From assembly GCF_056712565.1 (NCBI RefSeq), contig NZ_CM160072.1: DNA of 64,000 nt. One strand, 5' to 3'. The translations under genes and the position numbers were made by a program. This document shows, one piece after another, positions 5,732 through 62,524 of this stretch. The notes beneath the pieces were generated by a model. It did no database searches. It was not told where the DNA came from and worked only from the letters and a program-made list of their open reading frames with translations. Positions within the stretch are counted from its first letter, which is position 1. Each line of letters starts with the position of its first letter.

Positions 5732-5734
5732 TTA

Positions 5735-6649: not shown

Positions 6650-6816
6650 GGTTATCTTCAGGCGTGGAAAAGTCGCCCTATTAAACGTGATTACGATCAC
6701 ATTCTCAAGACGCTACTTACAAATTACCTACAAGCTTACAACATTAACAGGTGCTGCATGTGGCACCTGTTAATGATAAAGGCACATAGAATGTTGTAAC
6801 TAATATAGCGAAATAA

Positions 6817-46157: not shown

Positions 46158-47399
46158 GTGTTTCATTGCCCATTTCTGCTCATGCATCATCTACACATCT
46201 ATCCGGATCTGCGCACTATGTTCCGCCGTCTGCTTATCGCAACAATCGTCGGTATTCTTGCGGCCTTTGCCGTTGCCGGGTTTCGTCATGCGATGCTGCT
46301 ACTGGAGTGGCTGTTCCTCAATAATGACTCCGGCAGTCTGGTCAATGCAGCGACAAATCTTTCCCCGTGGCGACGGCTGCTAACCCCGGCGCTCGGCGGA
46401 CTGGCGGCGGGTTTGTTGCTGATGGGCTGGCAGAAATTTACCCAGCAACGCCCTCATGCGCCGACCGATTACATGGAAGCGTTGCAAACCGATGGTCAGT
46501 TTGATTACGCAGCAAGCCTGGTTAAATCGCTTGCCTCTCTACTGGTAGTAACCAGCGGCAGTGCAATTGGTCGCGAAGGTGCGATGATTCTTTTAGCTGC
46601 CCTTGCAGCCTCGTGTTTTGCCCAACGTCTTACGCCACGCCAGGAGTGGAAATTATGGATCGCCTGTGGAGCTGCGGCGGGAATGGCTGCGGCCTATCGC
46701 GCCCCGCTTGCTGGCAGTTTATTTATAGCCGAAGTGCTGTTTGGCACTATGATGTTGGCCTCTCTCGGCCCGGTGATTATTTCCGCCGTCGTGGCGTTGC
46801 TGGTTAGCAATCTTATTAATCATAGCGACGCATTACTCTACAGCGGACCACTGTTGTTAACGTTAATGAACGCCTGTCATCGTGGATTTGTGAGTCTCAA
46901 GCTTGCGCCGCCCTGGCAACTGGCACTGGGCGGGTTGATCGTGGGTCTGCTTTCCCTGTTCACACCTGCAGTGTGGGGCAACGGCTATAGCACCGTACAA
47001 TCCTTTTTAACCGCTCCGCCACTGTTAATGATCATTGCCGGGATCTTCCTCTGTAAACTGTGTGCCGTGCTGGCGAGTAGTGGTTCTGGCGCGCCCGGTG
47101 GTGTCTTTACACCGACGCTATTTATCGGTCTTGCCATTGGCATGTTGTATGGTCGTAGCCTGGGATTATGGTTACCTGATGGCGAAGAAATTACGCTTTT
47201 ACTCGGATTGACAGGGATGGCGACACTGTTGGCGGCGACCACGCACGCGCCGATTATGTCGACGTTGATGATATGTGAAATGACCGGGGAGTATCAGCTA
47301 CTCCCCGGTTTATTGATTGCCTGCGTAATTGCGTCGGTAATTTCGCGGACGTTACACCGTGACTCTATCTACCGCCAGCACACTGCGAAGCATAGCTAA
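46158..47399 (+). CDS. clcB: Voltage-gated ClC-type chloride channel ClcB; start uncertain (GTG 46158, ATG 46182 or ATG 46218)
   Basis: ClC-family membrane protein; 3' end overlaps convergent bioD2 by 48 bp. Confidence 0.85.
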
Positions 47400-48047
47400 G
47401 CGGATGTATTGCCCCAGTTCACGCTGTTCGGCGCGCGGCAGATAAGGCAGTTCACCAATGAGCGGTGCCGGAAGTTTTTTACCGAGCACATCAATGATTT
47501 CCGCATAATGCGCCAGTCCTGGGTTGATTCGGTTAGCCACCCAGCCAATGAGCGGCAGCCCGTCGTTGGCAATCGCCTGAGCTGTTAGCAGTGCATGGTT
47601 AATGCAACCTTCCTGAATACCGACAACCATCAACACCGGCAGTTGTTCCTGCACCACCCATTCAGAGAGCGGACGCAAATCATTCATCAGACTGCGCCAG
47701 CCGCCAGTCCCTTCTACCACGACATGATCGACTTTATCGGTCAGGTTTGCCAGGCCGTTTGAAATGAGGGTGTAATTGATTGGGCAACTGTGCGCCACGC
47801 TACTTTCTTCTTCGCTTAACGCGATAGGATTAACTGCTTCATAAGGCAGTTCGATGGTTGAAACACTCTGCAACACCAGGGCATCTTTATTACGCAGCCC
47901 TTCGGGTGTCTCTTTGCTCCCCTTCGCTACGGGTTTATATCCCGCAACCGTTTTTCCCTGGGAGGCTAACGCTTGTAGCAATGCGCGGGAAACCACCGTT
48001 TTCCCTACAGAAGTGTCTGTACCGGTAATAAAGAAACGCTTCAGCAT
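47352..48047 (-). CDS. bioD2: Dethiobiotin synthetase paralogue BioD2 (YnfK), 231 aa
   Basis: P-loop GTDTSVGKT; start MLKRFFITG. Confidence 0.85.
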
Positions 48048-48171
48048 CACTAACTCCACCGTTATGCTTCACAAATATAAACCAGGAAAATAATTAACCT
48101 TGAAAGTCTAAGTTATGCTTTCCTGGCCCAAATTGAGATAGCGCAAATTTTGGTAGAACAGTTAAAAAATG

Positions 48172-49390
48172 TTAACCCTGCAACAGACGAATCAACAAAG
48201 AACCGTTATACATCGCGTCTTTTACCAGCGCAGCGCCTGCCATCGTGCCCTGGTTAGAAAACTGAGTACTCTCAACGCTAATGTGCTGACTATACGCAGG
48301 AAGGGCCTGCTGACGGATGCTGTCCGAGATAACTGGGAAGAGGATATCTGCCGCTTTACTTAACGGTGAGCCAATCAGTATTTTTTGTGGGTTAAAAATT
48401 CACCATGATGGCAAGAATGCGACCGACATGCGCGCCTACCCCGGTAATGATGTCTTTTGCCAGTAGATCGCCGCGCAATGCCGCCTGACACAATGAGTCC
48501 ACGGTTAACGGTTGTCCATGTAACATCGAGCTCATGGATTGATTGAGACGCAGCTGTGCCAGCTCAAGAATACTGTCCACACTGGCGATGGTTTCGAGGC
48601 AACCGTGATTCCCGCAATAACAGCGTTTCCCATACGGGTCGACCTGTGTGTGGCCTATTTCCACGAGGCTACTGCTGCCTGCGTGTAGCAGATGACCATC
48701 GGTAATGACGCCCGCCCCCACGTTGTGATCGATAACCACCTGAATCACATCGCGCGCCCCGCGTGAGGCACCAAACAAGGCCTCAGCCATCGTCCATGCG
48801 CTGATATCATGCTGAATATAAACCGGTACGCCGGTATGCTGCTCCAGCGCCTCGCCGAGCGGCATCTCTTTTACATCCTCGTAGAACGGCATGCGATGTA
48901 CAATACCATTTTCCGTATCAATAATTCCCGGCAAGGTTATGGCAATCGAAGTCAGACGCTCAAGTTTTTTCTGGTGGCGGATAAAAAACTGATCGATATG
49001 GGAAATGATACGATCCAGCAATGGCGAGTCATCTTTTAACGCCAGTTCCTGCGACTCCTCCACTACCAGTTTGCTGCTCAGATCGCGCAAAGCAAGGAAA
49101 ATCTCCCCGCGACTAATGCGCAGAGAAAGATAGTGCCAGGCTTCAGTTTCAACCACCAGCCCCACTGCCGGACGGCCACGGTTCCCCGCTTCTTTGATTT
49201 CCAGCTCTTGCACCAGGTGTGCTTCGAGCATCTCACGGACAATTTTAGTGATACTGGCAGGAGCCAGTTGCGCCAGACGGGAAAGATCGATACGCGAGAC
49301 TGGACCAAGCTGATCAATCAGGCGATAAACCGCGCCCGCGTTGGTCTGCTTTATTTGATCAATGTGCCCAGGCTGATTTTCAGCAACCAC
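48172..49390 (-). pseudogene. mlc: mlc (dgsA) global PTS repressor, frameshifted: 332-codon N-terminal ORF (48392-49390) plus intact out-of-frame C-terminal 73 codons (48172-48393)
   Basis: N-frame ends ...GRILAIMVNF-stop; the adjacent frame reads NPQKILIGSPLSK...LLIRLLQG-stop, matching the Mlc C-terminus; junction is the T-run at 48392-48397; 331+2+73=406 codons points to a 2-bp deletion. Confidence 0.8.
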
Positions 49391-53608: not shown

Positions 53609-53616
53609 TGTTCAAA

Positions 53617-53640
53617 CGCTGCCCGACAGCGCGGGCAGCG
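53617..53640. terminator. Bidirectional hairpin between ydgD and mdtI
   Basis: cgctgccc/gggcagcg stem. Confidence 0.55.
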
Positions 53641-53646
53641 TGTTCA

Positions 53647-54738: not shown

Positions 54739-55773
54739 ATGGCAAAGCCGATCATCACGCTCAATGGCCTAAAAATCGTCATTATGTTGGGAATGCTGGT
54801 CATTATTCTCTGCGGTATCCGTTTTGCCGCCGAGATCATCGTGCCGTTTATTCTCGCATTATTTATTGCTGTTATTCTTAACCCGCTGGTGCAACACATG
54901 GTCCGCTGGCGTGTGCCGCGTGTACTGGCAGTGTCAATTTTGATGACCATCATCGTGATGGCGATGGTGTTGCTGTTAGCTTATCTGGGTTCCGCGCTCA
55001 ATGAGTTGACGCGGACGTTACCGCAATATCGCAACTCTATTATGACGCCGCTGCAAGCGATTGAACCGTTGTTGCAACGCGTAGGGATTGATGTCTCAGT
55101 TGACCAACTGGCGCATTACATTGATCCGAACGCGGCGATGACGTTGCTCACCAACTTATTGACGCAGTTATCTAATGCCATGTCATCAATATTTTTATTG
55201 CTGCTGACGGTGCTGTTTATGTTGCTCGAAGTGCCACAATTGCCCGGAAAATTTCAGCAAATGATGGCGCGTCCGGTTGAAGGGATGGCGGCGATTCAGC
55301 GTGCGATTGACAGTGTGTCTCATTATCTGGTGCTGAAAACAGCCATCAGCATCATCACCGGCCTGGTCGCCTGGGCGATGCTCGCCGCACTCGATGTTCG
55401 CTTCGCTTTTGTCTGGGGATTGCTGGCCTTTGCGCTTAATTACATCCCGAATATTGGTTCAGTTCTCGCGGCAATCCCCCCTATCGCTCAGGTACTGGTG
55501 TTTAATGGCTTCTACGAAGCGTTGCTGGTGCTGGCGGGATATCTGCTGATTAATCTGGTCTTCGGCAATATTCTGGAGCCACGCATCATGGGGCGTGGGC
55601 TGGGGCTTTCCACATTGGTGGTATTTTTGTCGTTGATTTTTTGGGGATGGTTGTTAGGACCGGTGGGTATGCTGCTTTCCGTGCCGTTGACAATTATTGT
55701 CAAAATTGCGCTTGAACAAACAGCGGGAGGTCAAAGCATCGCCGTTCTGTTAAGCGATCTCAATAAAGAGTGA
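54739..55773 (+). CDS. tqsA: AI-2 transport protein TqsA (YdgG), 344 aa
   Basis: AI-2E family membrane protein; full length. Confidence 0.9.
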
Positions 55774-55794
55774 CGGCCTCCGCAGAGGCCGTCA
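55771..55794. terminator. Palindromic hairpin between tqsA and convergent pntB
   Basis: Perfect tgacggcctc/gaggccgtca stem. Confidence 0.5.
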
Positions 55795-61801: not shown

Positions 61802-62524
61802 ATGGGTAAAACCCAGTCCTTGCCAATATTAATTACTGGCGGAGGTCGCCGCATCGGCCTCGCCCTCGCATGGCATTTCATTAATCAAAAGCAACCGGTG
61901 ATTGTCAGCTATCGGACGCACTATCCCGCCATTGATGGACTGATTAAGGCAGGTGCGCAGTGTATTCAGGCTGATTTTTCGACCAACGACGGTGTGATGG
62001 CGTTTGCCGATGAAGTACTAAAAAGCACCCATGGTCTGCGTGCTATTTTGCATAACGCCAGCGCGTGGATGGCGGAAAAACCGGGAGCGCCACTGACCGA
62101 TGTACTGGCTTGCATGATGCAGATCCACGTTAATACCCCATACCTGCTCAACCATGCTCTGGAAAGATTACTGCGTGGGCACGGACACGCCGCCAGCGAT
62201 ATCATTCACTTTACCGATTATGTGGTGGAGCGCGGTAGCGACAAACATATTGCGTATGCTGCAAGCAAAGCGGCACTGGATAATATGACCCGCTCGTTTG
62301 CCCGCAAGCTGGCACCGGAAGTGAAAGTGAATTCTATTGCGCCATCGCTGATCCTGTTTAATGAACATGATGATGCTGAATATCGACAACAGGCGCTGAA
62401 TAAATCACTGATGAAAACAGCGCCTGGCGAGAAAGAAGTGATCGACCTGGTCGATTACTTACTTACCAGCTGCTTTGTCACCGGACGCAGTTTCCCTCTT
62501 GATGGCGGTCGTCATCTGCGTTAA
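61802..62524 (+). CDS. folM: Dihydromonapterin reductase FolM (SDR), 240 aa
   Basis: Rossmann TGGGRRIG motif; full length. Confidence 0.9.
   Translation: MGKTQSLPILITGGGRRIGLALAWHFINQKQPVIVSYRTHYPAIDGLIKAGAQCIQADFSTNDGVMAFADEVLKSTHGLRAILHNASAWMAEKPGAPLTDVLACMMQIHVNTPYLLNHALERLLRGHGHAASDIIHFTDYVVERGSDKHIAYAASKAALDNMTRSFARKLAPEVKVNSIAPSLILFNEHDDAEYRQQALNKSLMKTAPGEKEVIDLVDYLLTSCFVTGRSFPLDGGRHLR

What the first reader, a model, noticed from the sequence alone, without database searches (positions are those of the whole stretch)
47352..47399. Convergent 48-bp overlap of clcB and bioD2, plus other tight convergent pairs
The clcB 3' end overlaps the bioD2 3' end by 48 bp on opposite strands. tam/yneE (3 bp apart), speG/ynfC (2 bp apart) and folM/ydgC (4-bp overlap) are likewise convergent with no room for terminators, which implies read-through antisense transcription or unusual termination.
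Basis: seen in the sequence. Interest (0 to 1): 0.2.

Follow-up and report, generated by a model that had tools for sequence, protein, structure and literature searches.

The report
Neighbour's terminator hairpin inside clcB
The 48-bp tail-to-tail overlap of clcB and bioD2 (ynfK/bidA) in E. coli is real, long annotated and conserved across enteric bacteria, and there is in fact a terminator: the hairpin that ends the bioD2 message sits inside the clcB coding sequence, with Rho handling read-through.

Summary
clcB (+, ends 47399) and bioD2/ynfK/bidA (-, ends 47352) overlap by 48 bp. The tam/yneE (3-bp gap), speG/ynfC (2-bp gap) and folM/ydgC (4-bp overlap) junctions are also as described. RefSeq annotates all four the same way in K-12.

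The overlap is ancient: 39-66 bp in about 58 Enterobacteriaceae species. Both protein tails are real. BioD2 is 231 aa everywhere, even where clcB is absent, and ClcB's overlapped SIY motif is family-wide.

"No room for terminators" is wrong. An 11-bp GC-rich hairpin (47283-47309) lies inside clcB, 42 nt past the bioD2 stop. It is the most synonymously constrained part of clcB (Thr ACC 58/58, Pro CCC 58/58), and one stem pair covaries. It survives in lineages that lost clcB, twice followed there by a T7-8 tract. A published primary ynfK 3' end maps 8 nt after it.

Published bicyclomycin data show Rho-dependent termination of antisense read-through at three of the four junctions. Read-through is therefore real, but its termination is ordinary.

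This is a well-supported new example of a known kind, of modest interest.

The parts
46182..47399 (+). clcB CDS (PGAP start 46182; the UniProt-style start MFRRLL is at 46218). In this strain it carries a 75-bp in-frame deletion at 46842/46843.
   Evidence: Pfam Voltage_CLC covers residues 60-402 of the 418-aa K-12 protein. Deletion mapped.
47352..48047 (-). bioD2 (ynfK / bidA, b1593) CDS, 231 aa, a dethiobiotin synthetase paralogue.
   Evidence: Pfam AAA_26 covers residues 3-207. It aligns to E. coli BioD (PDB 1a82) only up to residue 220, so the last 11 aa are an extension.
47352..47399 (.). The 48-bp dual-coding overlap: ClcB ...[15 protein letters not shown] opposite BioD2 ...[15 protein letters not shown], in codon register 123:321.
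   Evidence: The overlap is conserved at 39-66 bp in the intact-clcB loci. Codon choice is locked while both genes are present (ClcB Arg417 CGC 51/51; BioD2 Val226 GTA 44/44) and relaxed in BioD2 where clcB is absent.
47283..47309 (-). Hairpin ACCGGGGAGTA-gctga-TACTCCCCGGT (11 Watson-Crick pairs, loop of 5 nt; a 12th G.U pair forms on the + strand at 47282/47310). It is encoded by clcB codons Thr-Gly-Glu-Tyr-Gln-Leu-Leu-Pro-Gly and lies 42 nt downstream of the bioD2 stop.
47275..47351 (-). bioD2 3' UTR, lying wholly inside clcB. The published dominant 3' terminus, MG1655 1666447, corresponds to window 47275, 77 nt past the stop. The RNA ends ...CCCCGGU-CAUUUCAC.
   Evidence: PMC10687069 Supplementary Data 2; coordinates checked on MG1655 sequence. 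The fold z-score is -4.87.
47342..47342 (-). Published coordinate of highest Rho score (MG1655 1666514) for the ynfK-primary / clcB-antisense Rho termination region. Resolution is coarse because 800-nt windows were used.
   Evidence: PMC7815308 supp. file 2: -BCM 85 falling to 11 reads, +BCM 292 falling to 159, Rho score 4.2, p = 1.5e-6. The minus-sense RNA here has C/G of 1.3-1.5.
5732..5734 (.). tam/yneE convergent junction, 3-bp gap.
   Evidence: No significant structure downstream of either stop.
37645..37646 (.). speG/ynfC convergent junction, 2-bp gap. A candidate speG hairpin AAACCCG..CGGGTTTTAC lies at about 37680-37705, inside ynfC.
   Evidence: Fold z-score -2.8. Rho region at MG1655 1656955(+). 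A 'Primary speG' 3' terminus is listed in PMC10687069, but its coordinate was not seen.
62521..62524 (.). folM/ydgC convergent junction, 4-bp overlap.
   Evidence: Rho region at MG1655 1681110(-), antisense to folM. No significant structure.

Best explanation
clcB and bioD2 (ynfK/bidA) form a genuine, ancient tail-to-tail overlapping gene pair. Both proteins are made as annotated. bioD2 transcripts do not stop in an intergenic spacer. They run 77 nt into the antisense of clcB and end 8 nt after a GC-rich hairpin that is written into clcB codons Thr-Gly-Glu/Gln-Tyr-x-Leu-Leu-Pro-Gly.

That hairpin is the 3'-end-forming element of the bioD2 (mlc-ynfK) message. It acts either as an intrinsic terminator with a U-tract weakened by clcB's coding needs, or as the stem-loop that stops 3' exonucleases after Rho-dependent termination, or as both. 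Rho terminates what reads through. clcB has no conserved terminator of its own inside bioD2, so its weak read-through is presumably also left to Rho. The other three tight junctions behave the same way, with Rho-terminated antisense read-through.

Shown: the overlap, its conservation, selection on the hairpin independent of ClcB, the mapped 3' end, and the bicyclomycin sensitivity. Inferred: that the hairpin causes the 3' end, and how the work is divided between intrinsic termination and Rho plus trimming.
For: (1) The overlap and both tails are conserved. BioD2 is 231 aa in all 80 loci, including 13 with no clcB at all. There its tail motif (V/A)DR(V/I)xA* persists with relaxed codons and TGA stops. 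ClC homologues at 43-49% identity also carry the SIY motif and end 2-4 aa, in one case 13 aa, after it.

(2) Of 265 conserved degenerate codon columns in clcB across 58 species (<95% nt identity), only three have near-zero synonymous entropy: Thr393 ACC 58/58 and Pro400 CCC 58/58, both in the stem, and Arg417 in the overlap. Gly394 is GGG 48 / GGA 9 / GGC 1. The lowest-entropy windows of the whole gene are the hairpin and the overlap.

(3) Pairing is kept through change. Glu GAG/GAA pairs with Leu CTC in 21/21 species; Gln CAG/CAA pairs with CTG/TTG in 31/37. In total 91.5% (+ sense) and 86.2% (- sense) of cells are paired, against 21-51% when partners are slid. The 9-pair core is better kept in the bioD2 sense, because GGA and CAA give G.U pairs there: my count from the per-pair tables is 97.5% versus 89.5%.

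(4) Codon-randomisation null: observed median -19.1 (+) and -17.3 (-) kcal/mol versus -9.3 and -8.3; p <= 0.05 in 81% and 91% of species.

(5) The hairpin is retained downstream of bioD2 in 9 loci where clcB is deleted or a remnant (L010, L017, L047, L079, L057, L011, L023, L052, L059). In L010 and L017 it is followed by T7-8, giving a canonical terminator.

(6) ClC homologues not next to bioD lack the hairpin, including one with the same TGQY..LPG motif.

(7) The 51 nt around the hairpin are identical in 5292 of 5418 E. coli genomes, whereas only 996 are >=99% identical over the 2.2-kb region.

(8) Experimental data: a primary ynfK 3' terminus at MG1655 1666447 (peak 1666442-1666455; three replicates with adjusted p of 4e-15 to 4e-9), 8 nt after the stem; and a Rho termination region at 1666514(-).
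Against: On the bioD2 strand the tail CAUUUCAC fails the usual U-tract criterion. The consensus scan flagged the hairpin as terminator-like only on the + strand.

Some wobble pairs (12-40 and 22-30) and the strong TTA/TTG bias at Leu402 (50/58) favour the + strand, or a bidirectional design.

Adams et al.'s curated Term-seq list has no ynfK 3' end. The gene is FNR-activated, so expression in their aerobic cultures was probably low.

Only two stem pairs show changes on both sides. The species are phylogenetically related, so the shuffle statistics overstate independence.

Eight clcB-less loci have no recognisable copy of the hairpin. Two of these carry unrelated canonical terminators.
Confidence: 0.8

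Rival explanations
1. The hairpin acts on the + strand, as an intragenic terminator/attenuator or a translational pause site within clcB mRNA. It would work only when translation is uncoupled, stopping clcB transcription before it enters bioD2. Alternatively it is a truly bidirectional terminator.
For: The consensus scan calls it terminator-like on the + strand (stem followed by TATTGATTGC). Leu402 is TTA/TTG in 50 of 58 species against about 22% expected. Pairs 12-40 and 22-30 are kept only as + sense G.U wobbles.
Against: The + strand U-tract is not conserved (GGGCTGCTG, GGTCTGCTG and others). The hairpin persists where clcB is gone. CCT and ACT, which would pair in the + sense, are never used, while GGA and CAA, which pair only in the - sense, are tolerated. 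No + strand 3' end is listed near it in the two data sets that could be searched, although clcB is weakly expressed.
Confidence: 0.1
2. The overlap exists for antisense regulation, in the manner of an excludon. When FNR induces bioD2, its 77-nt 3' UTR pairs with the 3' end of clcB mRNA, or the polymerases collide, and ClcB expression falls; or the reverse.
For: The arrangement is conserved and the transcripts necessarily overlap by at least 125 nt. ynfK is directly FNR-activated (PMC3688515).
Against: There is no expression evidence for reciprocity. Both genes are weakly expressed. The hairpin and the BioD2 tail persist without clcB, so the conserved features do not need a partner. This mechanism could still coexist with the best explanation.
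Confidence: 0.1
3. The overlap is an annotation artefact: one of the two proteins really ends earlier.
For: BioD1 ends 11 residues before BioD2 does. The Pfam domains stop before the overlap. A few lineages carry earlier ClcB stops (L004, L060, L065).
Against: The BioD2 tail has invariant length and a conserved motif in all 80 loci, with or without clcB. ClcB's overlapped RTL..SIY motif is shared by distant ClC homologues. No frame-breaking indels occur in 58 species.
Confidence: 0.03
4. The hairpin is a by-product of the conserved ClC amino-acid motif and codon bias, with no function of its own.
For: Thr-Gly-Glu and Leu-Pro-Gly codons can be reverse complements of each other, and the motif is functionally conserved.
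Against: The stem uses rare codons that never vary (CCC, GGG), unlike other Pro, Gly and Thr columns of the same gene. The codon-randomisation null is rejected. A homologue with the same motif has no hairpin. The hairpin is retained after clcB loss. A mapped 3' end lies beside it.
Confidence: 0.03

Closest known systems
Convergent overlapping genes of E. coli with a terminator inside the partner's coding sequence (Lillo & Krakauer 2007, PMC2174442)
   Same: A tail-to-tail overlap in which the terminator hairpin must lie within the other gene, so that one sequence both codes and regulates. That paper counts 58 convergent overlaps, with 23 of 116 genes having a predicted intrinsic terminator.
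   Different: Those were predictions from one genome. Here the element has cross-species synonymous constraint, one covarying pair, retention after loss of the host gene, and a mapped 3' end. Whether this particular hairpin was in their list could not be checked.
Rho-dependent suppression of antisense read-through (bicyclomycin-sensitive regions; Adams et al. 2021, PMC7815308)
   Same: Untranslated RNA running antisense into a convergent gene is terminated by Rho. The ynfK/clcB, speG/ynfC and ydgC/folM junctions are all in their table.
   Different: At ynfK/clcB there is additionally a conserved hairpin with a discrete 3' end 8 nt after it, so the end is not defined by Rho alone.
Bidirectional intrinsic terminators between convergent genes (Ju, Li & Liu 2019, recalled from my own knowledge; cited in papers found)
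   Same: One hairpin serves a convergent junction. Four other junctions in this window have exactly that in their 24-56-bp gaps (17324-17351, 31807-31827, 53616-53641, 55771-55794).
   Different: Here the hairpin lies inside one gene's coding sequence, 89 nt before that gene's own stop. Only the minus-strand 3' end is documented, and the U-tracts are imperfect.
Stem-loops that protect the 3' ends of Rho-terminated transcripts (Dar & Sorek 2018, PMC6061677; content recalled from my own knowledge, since only the record and its lack of held supplements were seen)
   Same: A stable hairpin without a good U-tract, a 3' end just after it, and bicyclomycin sensitivity downstream.
   Different: Trimming versus direct termination was not tested here.

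Membership tests
Convergent (tail-to-tail) overlapping protein-coding genes | Two CDSs on opposite strands share their 3' ends. | tested here: met
   47352-47399 is shared, with the same annotation in three RefSeq genomes.
Convergent (tail-to-tail) overlapping protein-coding genes | Both reading frames stay open and conserved across species in the shared stretch. | tested here: met
   overlap of 39-66 bp in the intact-clcB loci. The BioD2 tail is kept without clcB. The ClcB SIY motif is family-wide.
Convergent (tail-to-tail) overlapping protein-coding genes | Both C-termini are actually translated. | not testable with these tools
   This needs C-terminal peptide proteomics.
Intrinsic (Rho-independent) terminator of bioD2 | A GC-rich stem with a short loop on the transcribed strand. 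| tested here: met
   11 bp, loop of 5 nt, about -21.5 kcal/mol in the minus sense.
Intrinsic (Rho-independent) terminator of bioD2 | A U-tract immediately after the stem (at least 5 U in 8 nt). | tested here: not met
   The minus-strand tail is CAUUUCAC, and the scan lists the site only on the + strand. In clcB-less L010 and L017 the same stem is followed by T7-8.
Intrinsic (Rho-independent) terminator of bioD2 | The RNA 3' end lies 7-9 nt after the stem. | tested here: met
   The published dominant terminus 1666447 is 8 nt after the stem end at 1666455.
Intrinsic (Rho-independent) terminator of bioD2 | Termination is independent of Rho. | tested here: inconclusive
   Published bicyclomycin data show downstream/upstream coverage rising from 0.13 to 0.54, so the site is partly Rho-dependent. 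The 800-nt windows cannot separate the hairpin site from later sites.
Rho-dependent terminator | Bicyclomycin-sensitive read-through. | tested here: met
   PMC7815308 supp. file 2: Rho score 4.2, p = 1.5e-6 at 1666514(-). Similar entries exist for the speG and ydgC read-through.
Rho-dependent terminator | Untranslated RNA with C > G downstream of the stop. | tested here: met
   C/G is 1.3-1.5 over the first 300 nt of the minus-sense RNA.
Bidirectional terminator | 3' ends on both strands flank one hairpin. | tested here: inconclusive
   Only the minus-strand end is listed. clcB expression is low, so absence of a + end is weak evidence.
Excludon / regulatory antisense overlap | Reciprocal expression of the two genes mediated by the overlapping transcripts. 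| not tested
   No expression data were examined.
Described RNA family (Rfam) | A match at the family's gathering score. | tested here: not met
   There are only two sub-threshold chance matches (E about 0.6) in 46000-48500.

The most novel reading that the evidence does not exclude
The bioD2 3'-end hairpin has been imposed on the codons of ClcB's conserved EMTG(E/Q)Y..LPG motif, so that an RNA element of one gene shapes its convergent neighbour's protein. The Glu/Gln replacement in ClcB is coupled to a synonymous Leu change that keeps an antisense RNA base pair, and the hairpin outlives clcB when that gene is lost. In addition, BioD2's 11-residue tail (...VDRV..) may have arisen by overprinting, as the reverse-complement reading of ClcB's ancient ..DSIY.. 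motif, and later became useful in its own right.
Probability: 0.4. Interest if true: 0.4.

Novelty: new member of a known kind. Interest (0 to 1): 0.3.

Why it matters
The locus is a clean, checkable example of one stretch of DNA serving three purposes: two proteins on opposite strands, plus a neighbour's RNA 3'-end signal. It has measurable consequences. Synonymous sites in clcB are frozen, and a ClcB amino-acid change covaries with an RNA pair.

It is a practical warning for recoding, codon optimisation or deletion of clcB, because such edits would alter bioD2 (bidA) mRNA termination. It is also a warning for dN/dS or codon-bias analyses that assume synonymous sites are neutral.

It does not change how termination is understood. 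Embedded terminators and Rho clean-up of antisense read-through are established.

Tried and rejected
- I looked for a matching clcB terminator inside bioD2. Synonymous entropy there is normal outside the overlap and the 5' end, so none is conserved.
- The terminator scan and folds at the tam/yneE and folM/ydgC junctions gave only weak 5-6-bp stems and no significant structure.
- An Rfam scan of 46000-48500 found nothing above threshold.
- The search for homologous proteins with ClcB returned only close relatives and was useless for outgroups. The representative search supplied distant homologues instead.
- Supplements held nothing relevant for TERMITe and SMRT-Cappable-seq. No supplements are held for Dar & Sorek 2018 or Conway 2014.
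- A first tblastn of flanking genes gave odd 40-50% identities for mlc, ynfL and ynfM. I traced this to a 2-bp deletion in the window's mlc, which shifted my coordinates out of frame. It is not biology of the loci.
- I rejected a DNA-level palindrome or protein-binding site. Complementarity rather than sequence is conserved, and G.U-compatible variants are tolerated in one sense only.
- I could not test whether the BioD2 tail exists outside Enterobacteriaceae, because only the best 80 of 189 loci were kept.

Full report
**Observation**

The window is E. coli. Positions 46000-48200 are 100% identical to strain ZJ3920, and the region is present in 5421 of 5426 complete genomes. The ORF listing gives ClcB on the + strand ending at 47399 and BioD2 on the - strand ending at 47352, so they share 47352-47399, which is 48 bp. 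RefSeq annotates the same overlap in ZJ3920, K-12 RP437 and MG1655, where the gene is now called bidA (b1593).

The frames are in exact antiparallel codon register. Each gene's TAA stop is the reverse complement of a Leu TTA codon in the other.

The other three junctions are also exact: tam/yneE with a 3-bp gap, speG/ynfC with a 2-bp gap, and folM/ydgC with a 4-bp overlap. MG1655 has the same arrangement.

By my reading of the feature tables, the window holds about 15 convergent junctions. The other eleven have gaps of 24-258 bp. Four of those gaps contain a perfect hairpin of at least 9 bp, the usual shared-terminator layout.

**Is the overlap real and more than chance?**

In this register only TTA, CTA and TCA codons of one gene create stops for the other. 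They are 3.1% of the window's codons, so 15 open codons has a probability of about 0.63. The length alone is therefore unremarkable.

Conservation is the informative part. I collected 80 species-representative loci around bioD2.

- BioD2 is 231 aa in every one of them.
- Where clcB is present and intact, it overlaps bioD2. The overlap is 48 bp in most genera, 45 bp in Salmonella and Citrobacter, 66 bp in Enterobacter and 39 bp in Raoultella terrigena.
- In 13 loci with no clcB, the BioD2 tail keeps its length and its (V/A)DR(V/I)xA motif. Its codons relax there: Ala231 is GCC, GCT or GCA; stops are TGA; Leu217 is CTG. The tail therefore belongs to BioD2 and is not an annotation artefact.

E. 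coli BioD (PDB 1a82) aligns only up to BioD2 residue 220, so the last 11 residues are an extension.

On the ClcB side, homologues at 43-49% identity from unrelated contexts all carry the R(R/T)L..SIY motif. Five of the six end 2-4 residues after it, and one ends 13 residues after it. The overlapped part of ClcB is therefore also intrinsic. Only the last few residues are variable, and their number is set by where the antisense of bioD2 offers a stop.

**The hairpin**

An 11-bp Watson-Crick hairpin lies 42 nt downstream of the bioD2 stop, inside clcB, at 47283-47309. Its sequence is ACCGGGGAGTA-gctga-TACTCCCCGGT, with a folding energy of about -21.5 kcal/mol. It is encoded by the ClC motif codons Thr-Gly-Glu-Tyr-Gln-Leu-Leu-Pro-Gly. 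The bioD2 3' region folds far better than shuffled sequence (z = -4.87, 0 of 200 shuffles as good).

I built a clcB codon alignment of 58 species (<95% nt identity). It has 265 conserved degenerate columns.

- Only three columns have near-zero synonymous entropy: Thr393 (ACC 58/58), Pro400 (CCC 58/58) and Arg417. The first two are in the stem and the third is in the overlap.
- Gly394 is GGG 48, GGA 9, GGC 1.
- The most constrained windows in the whole gene are the hairpin and the overlap.

Pairing is maintained through change. Glu codons (GAG/GAA) go with Leu CTC in 21 of 21 species. Gln codons (CAG/CAA) go with CTG/TTG in 31 of 37.

The named structure pairs 91.5% of cells in the + sense and 86.2% in the - sense, against 21-51% when partners are slid. 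Only two pairs show changes on both sides, and the species are related, so I treat covariation as supporting evidence rather than decisive evidence.

The tolerated variants are asymmetric. GGA and CAA are G.U-compatible only in the bioD2 sense, and they occur. ACT and CCT are G.U-compatible only in the clcB sense, and they never occur. As a result the 9-pair core is kept better in the bioD2 sense: my count from the per-pair tables is 97.5% versus 89.5%.

A codon-randomisation null that keeps each species' protein and codon usage gives about -9 kcal/mol, against an observed median of -17 to -19. It is rejected at p <= 0.05 in 81% of species in the clcB (+) sense and 91% in the bioD2 (-) sense.

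Within E. coli, the 51 nt around the hairpin are identical in 5292 of 5418 genomes. Only 996 genomes are >=99% identical over the surrounding 2.2 kb.

**Gene-loss test**

In nine loci clcB is deleted or reduced to a remnant, yet a hairpin with the same arms (CCGGG[G/C]AG ... CT[C/G]CCCGG) remains just downstream of bioD2.

- L047, L079 and L057 have no detectable clcB, and the hairpin lies 8-12 nt after the stop.
- L010 and L017 are followed by T7-8, which makes a canonical terminator.
- L011, L023, L052 and L059 are clcB remnants.

Two other clcB-less loci (L040, L041) carry unrelated canonical terminators at the same place.

Conversely, three distant ClC homologues that are not next to a bioD gene have no comparable hairpin. 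One of them has the same TGQY..LPG motif.

bioD2 contains no similarly constrained segment outside the overlap, so there is no conserved clcB terminator inside bioD2.

**Experimental data in the literature**

TRS analysis of E. coli K-12 RNAtag-seq (PMC10687069, Supplementary Data 2) lists a minus-strand 3' terminus with these properties:

- peak 1666442-1666455, dominant position 1666447;
- signal 0.83, adjusted p of 4e-15, 4e-9 and 2e-11 in three replicates;
- class 'Primary' for ynfK.

On the MG1655 sequence the stem ends at 1666455, so the RNA ends ...CCCCGGU-CAUUUCAC, 8 nt after the stem. That is 77 nt past the stop codon and inside clcB. It corresponds to window position 47275.

Adams et al. 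2021 (PMC7815308, supp. file 2) list a Rho termination region at 1666514(-), classed as primary for ynfK and antisense to clcB. Coverage falls from 85 to 11 reads without bicyclomycin and from 292 to 159 with it; the Rho score is 4.2 and p = 1.5e-6. They list similar regions antisense to ynfC (211 nt past the speG stop) and antisense to folM (downstream of ydgC).

Their curated Term-seq table has no ynfK end. ynfK is directly FNR-activated (PMC3688515), so expression in their aerobic cultures was probably low.

The minus-sense RNA downstream of the bioD2 stop is C-rich relative to G (C/G 1.3-1.5).

**Mechanism**

The best-supported reading is that the hairpin embedded in clcB defines the 3' end of the bioD2 message. 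On the bioD2 strand the tail (CAUUUCAC) is a poor U-tract, because it is fixed by clcB's Cys-Glu-Met-Thr codons. In clcB-less Citrobacter relatives it becomes a run of T.

The bicyclomycin data say that a good part of the termination here needs Rho. So there are two possibilities. The hairpin may be a weak intrinsic terminator backed up by Rho. Alternatively, Rho may terminate a little further on and exonucleases trim back to the hairpin. These tools cannot separate the two.

Some features point to the other strand as well: the strong TTA/TTG bias at Leu402 and two wobble pairs. A bidirectional role is therefore not excluded, although no + strand end is recorded.

For tam/yneE and folM/ydgC I found no convincing hairpins. 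For speG a candidate hairpin lies inside ynfC (z = -2.8), and a 'Primary speG' terminus is listed, but I could not see its coordinate.

**Comparison with what is known**

Lillo & Krakauer (2007, PMC2174442) already noted that E. coli has 58 convergent overlaps, that any intrinsic terminator there must lie in the partner's coding sequence, and that 23 of 116 such genes have a predicted one. Rho's role in ending antisense read-through is established.

The finding is therefore a known annotation feature. On inspection it yields a well-documented new example of a known kind. It is neither an anomaly nor an unusual termination mechanism.

**Verdict**

Novelty: new member of a known kind. Interest: about 0.3.

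Noticed in passing
window 46842/46843 (inside clcB): This strain's clcB lacks 75 bp (25 codons, [25 protein letters not shown]) relative to K-12. The deletion is in frame and lies within the Voltage_CLC domain. The 75-bp segment is found in 5286 genomes while the locus is found in 5421, so roughly 2.5% of complete E. coli genomes carry the deletion or a divergent version. PGAP does not flag it as a pseudogene. The channel may be non-functional, yet the hairpin and overlap are intact.
   Followed up: partly
window about 48396-48398 (inside mlc, - strand): There is a 2-bp deletion (AT) relative to both ZJ3920 and MG1655. It shifts the mlc frame, so the ORF ends at 332 aa instead of 406 (...ILAIMVNF*). 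The window is therefore not identical to ZJ3920, and coordinates to the right of this point are the ZJ3920-derived ones minus 2. It may be a real mlc (dgsA) mutation or a sequencing error. mlc lies directly upstream of bioD2 on the same strand.
   Followed up: partly
window about 37680-37705 (+ strand, inside ynfC): A hairpin AAACCCGttcgacggCGGGTTTTAC lies 35-60 nt past the speG stop (fold z = -2.8). It is probably speG's terminator embedded in ynfC. PMC10687069 lists a 'Primary speG' 3' terminus whose coordinate I could not read, and PMC7815308 lists a Rho region 211 nt past the stop.
   Followed up: partly
window about 46103-46154 (+ strand, dmsD-clcB spacer / clcB 5' UTR): PMC10687069 (supplementary file 5) lists a 3' terminus in the clcB 5' UTR at MG1655 1665250, after a GCGGC...GCCGC hairpin. 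This suggests that most transcription is stopped before clcB is reached, which would explain clcB's low expression.
   Followed up: no
window 17324-17351, 31807-31827, 53616-53641, 55771-55794: Perfect 9-12-bp hairpins sit in the short gaps of four other convergent pairs: marB / 6-phospho-beta-glucosidase, ydfZ/ydfI, ydgD/mdtI and tqsA/pntB. This is the ordinary shared-terminator layout that the clcB/bioD2 pair lacks.
   Followed up: no
window 6742-6775: A 13-bp perfect palindrome CATTAACAGGTGC-tgcatgtg-GCACCTGTTAATG lies between uxaB and yneE. It is the longest perfect hairpin in the window. It could be the uxaB terminator or an operator site.
   Followed up: no
window 17206-17236 (marB) and 18168-18191 (6-phospho-beta-glucosidase): These are the only other perfect hairpins of at least 9 bp that lie inside coding sequence in the 64-kb window. 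The marB one is an 11-bp stem about 85 nt before the marB stop.
   Followed up: no
L089 3751-3754: A distant ClC homologue (45% identity) also ends in a 4-bp convergent overlap, here with an M20/M28 peptidase gene. Tail-to-tail abutment of this ClC subfamily is therefore not unique to Enterobacteriaceae.
   Followed up: no
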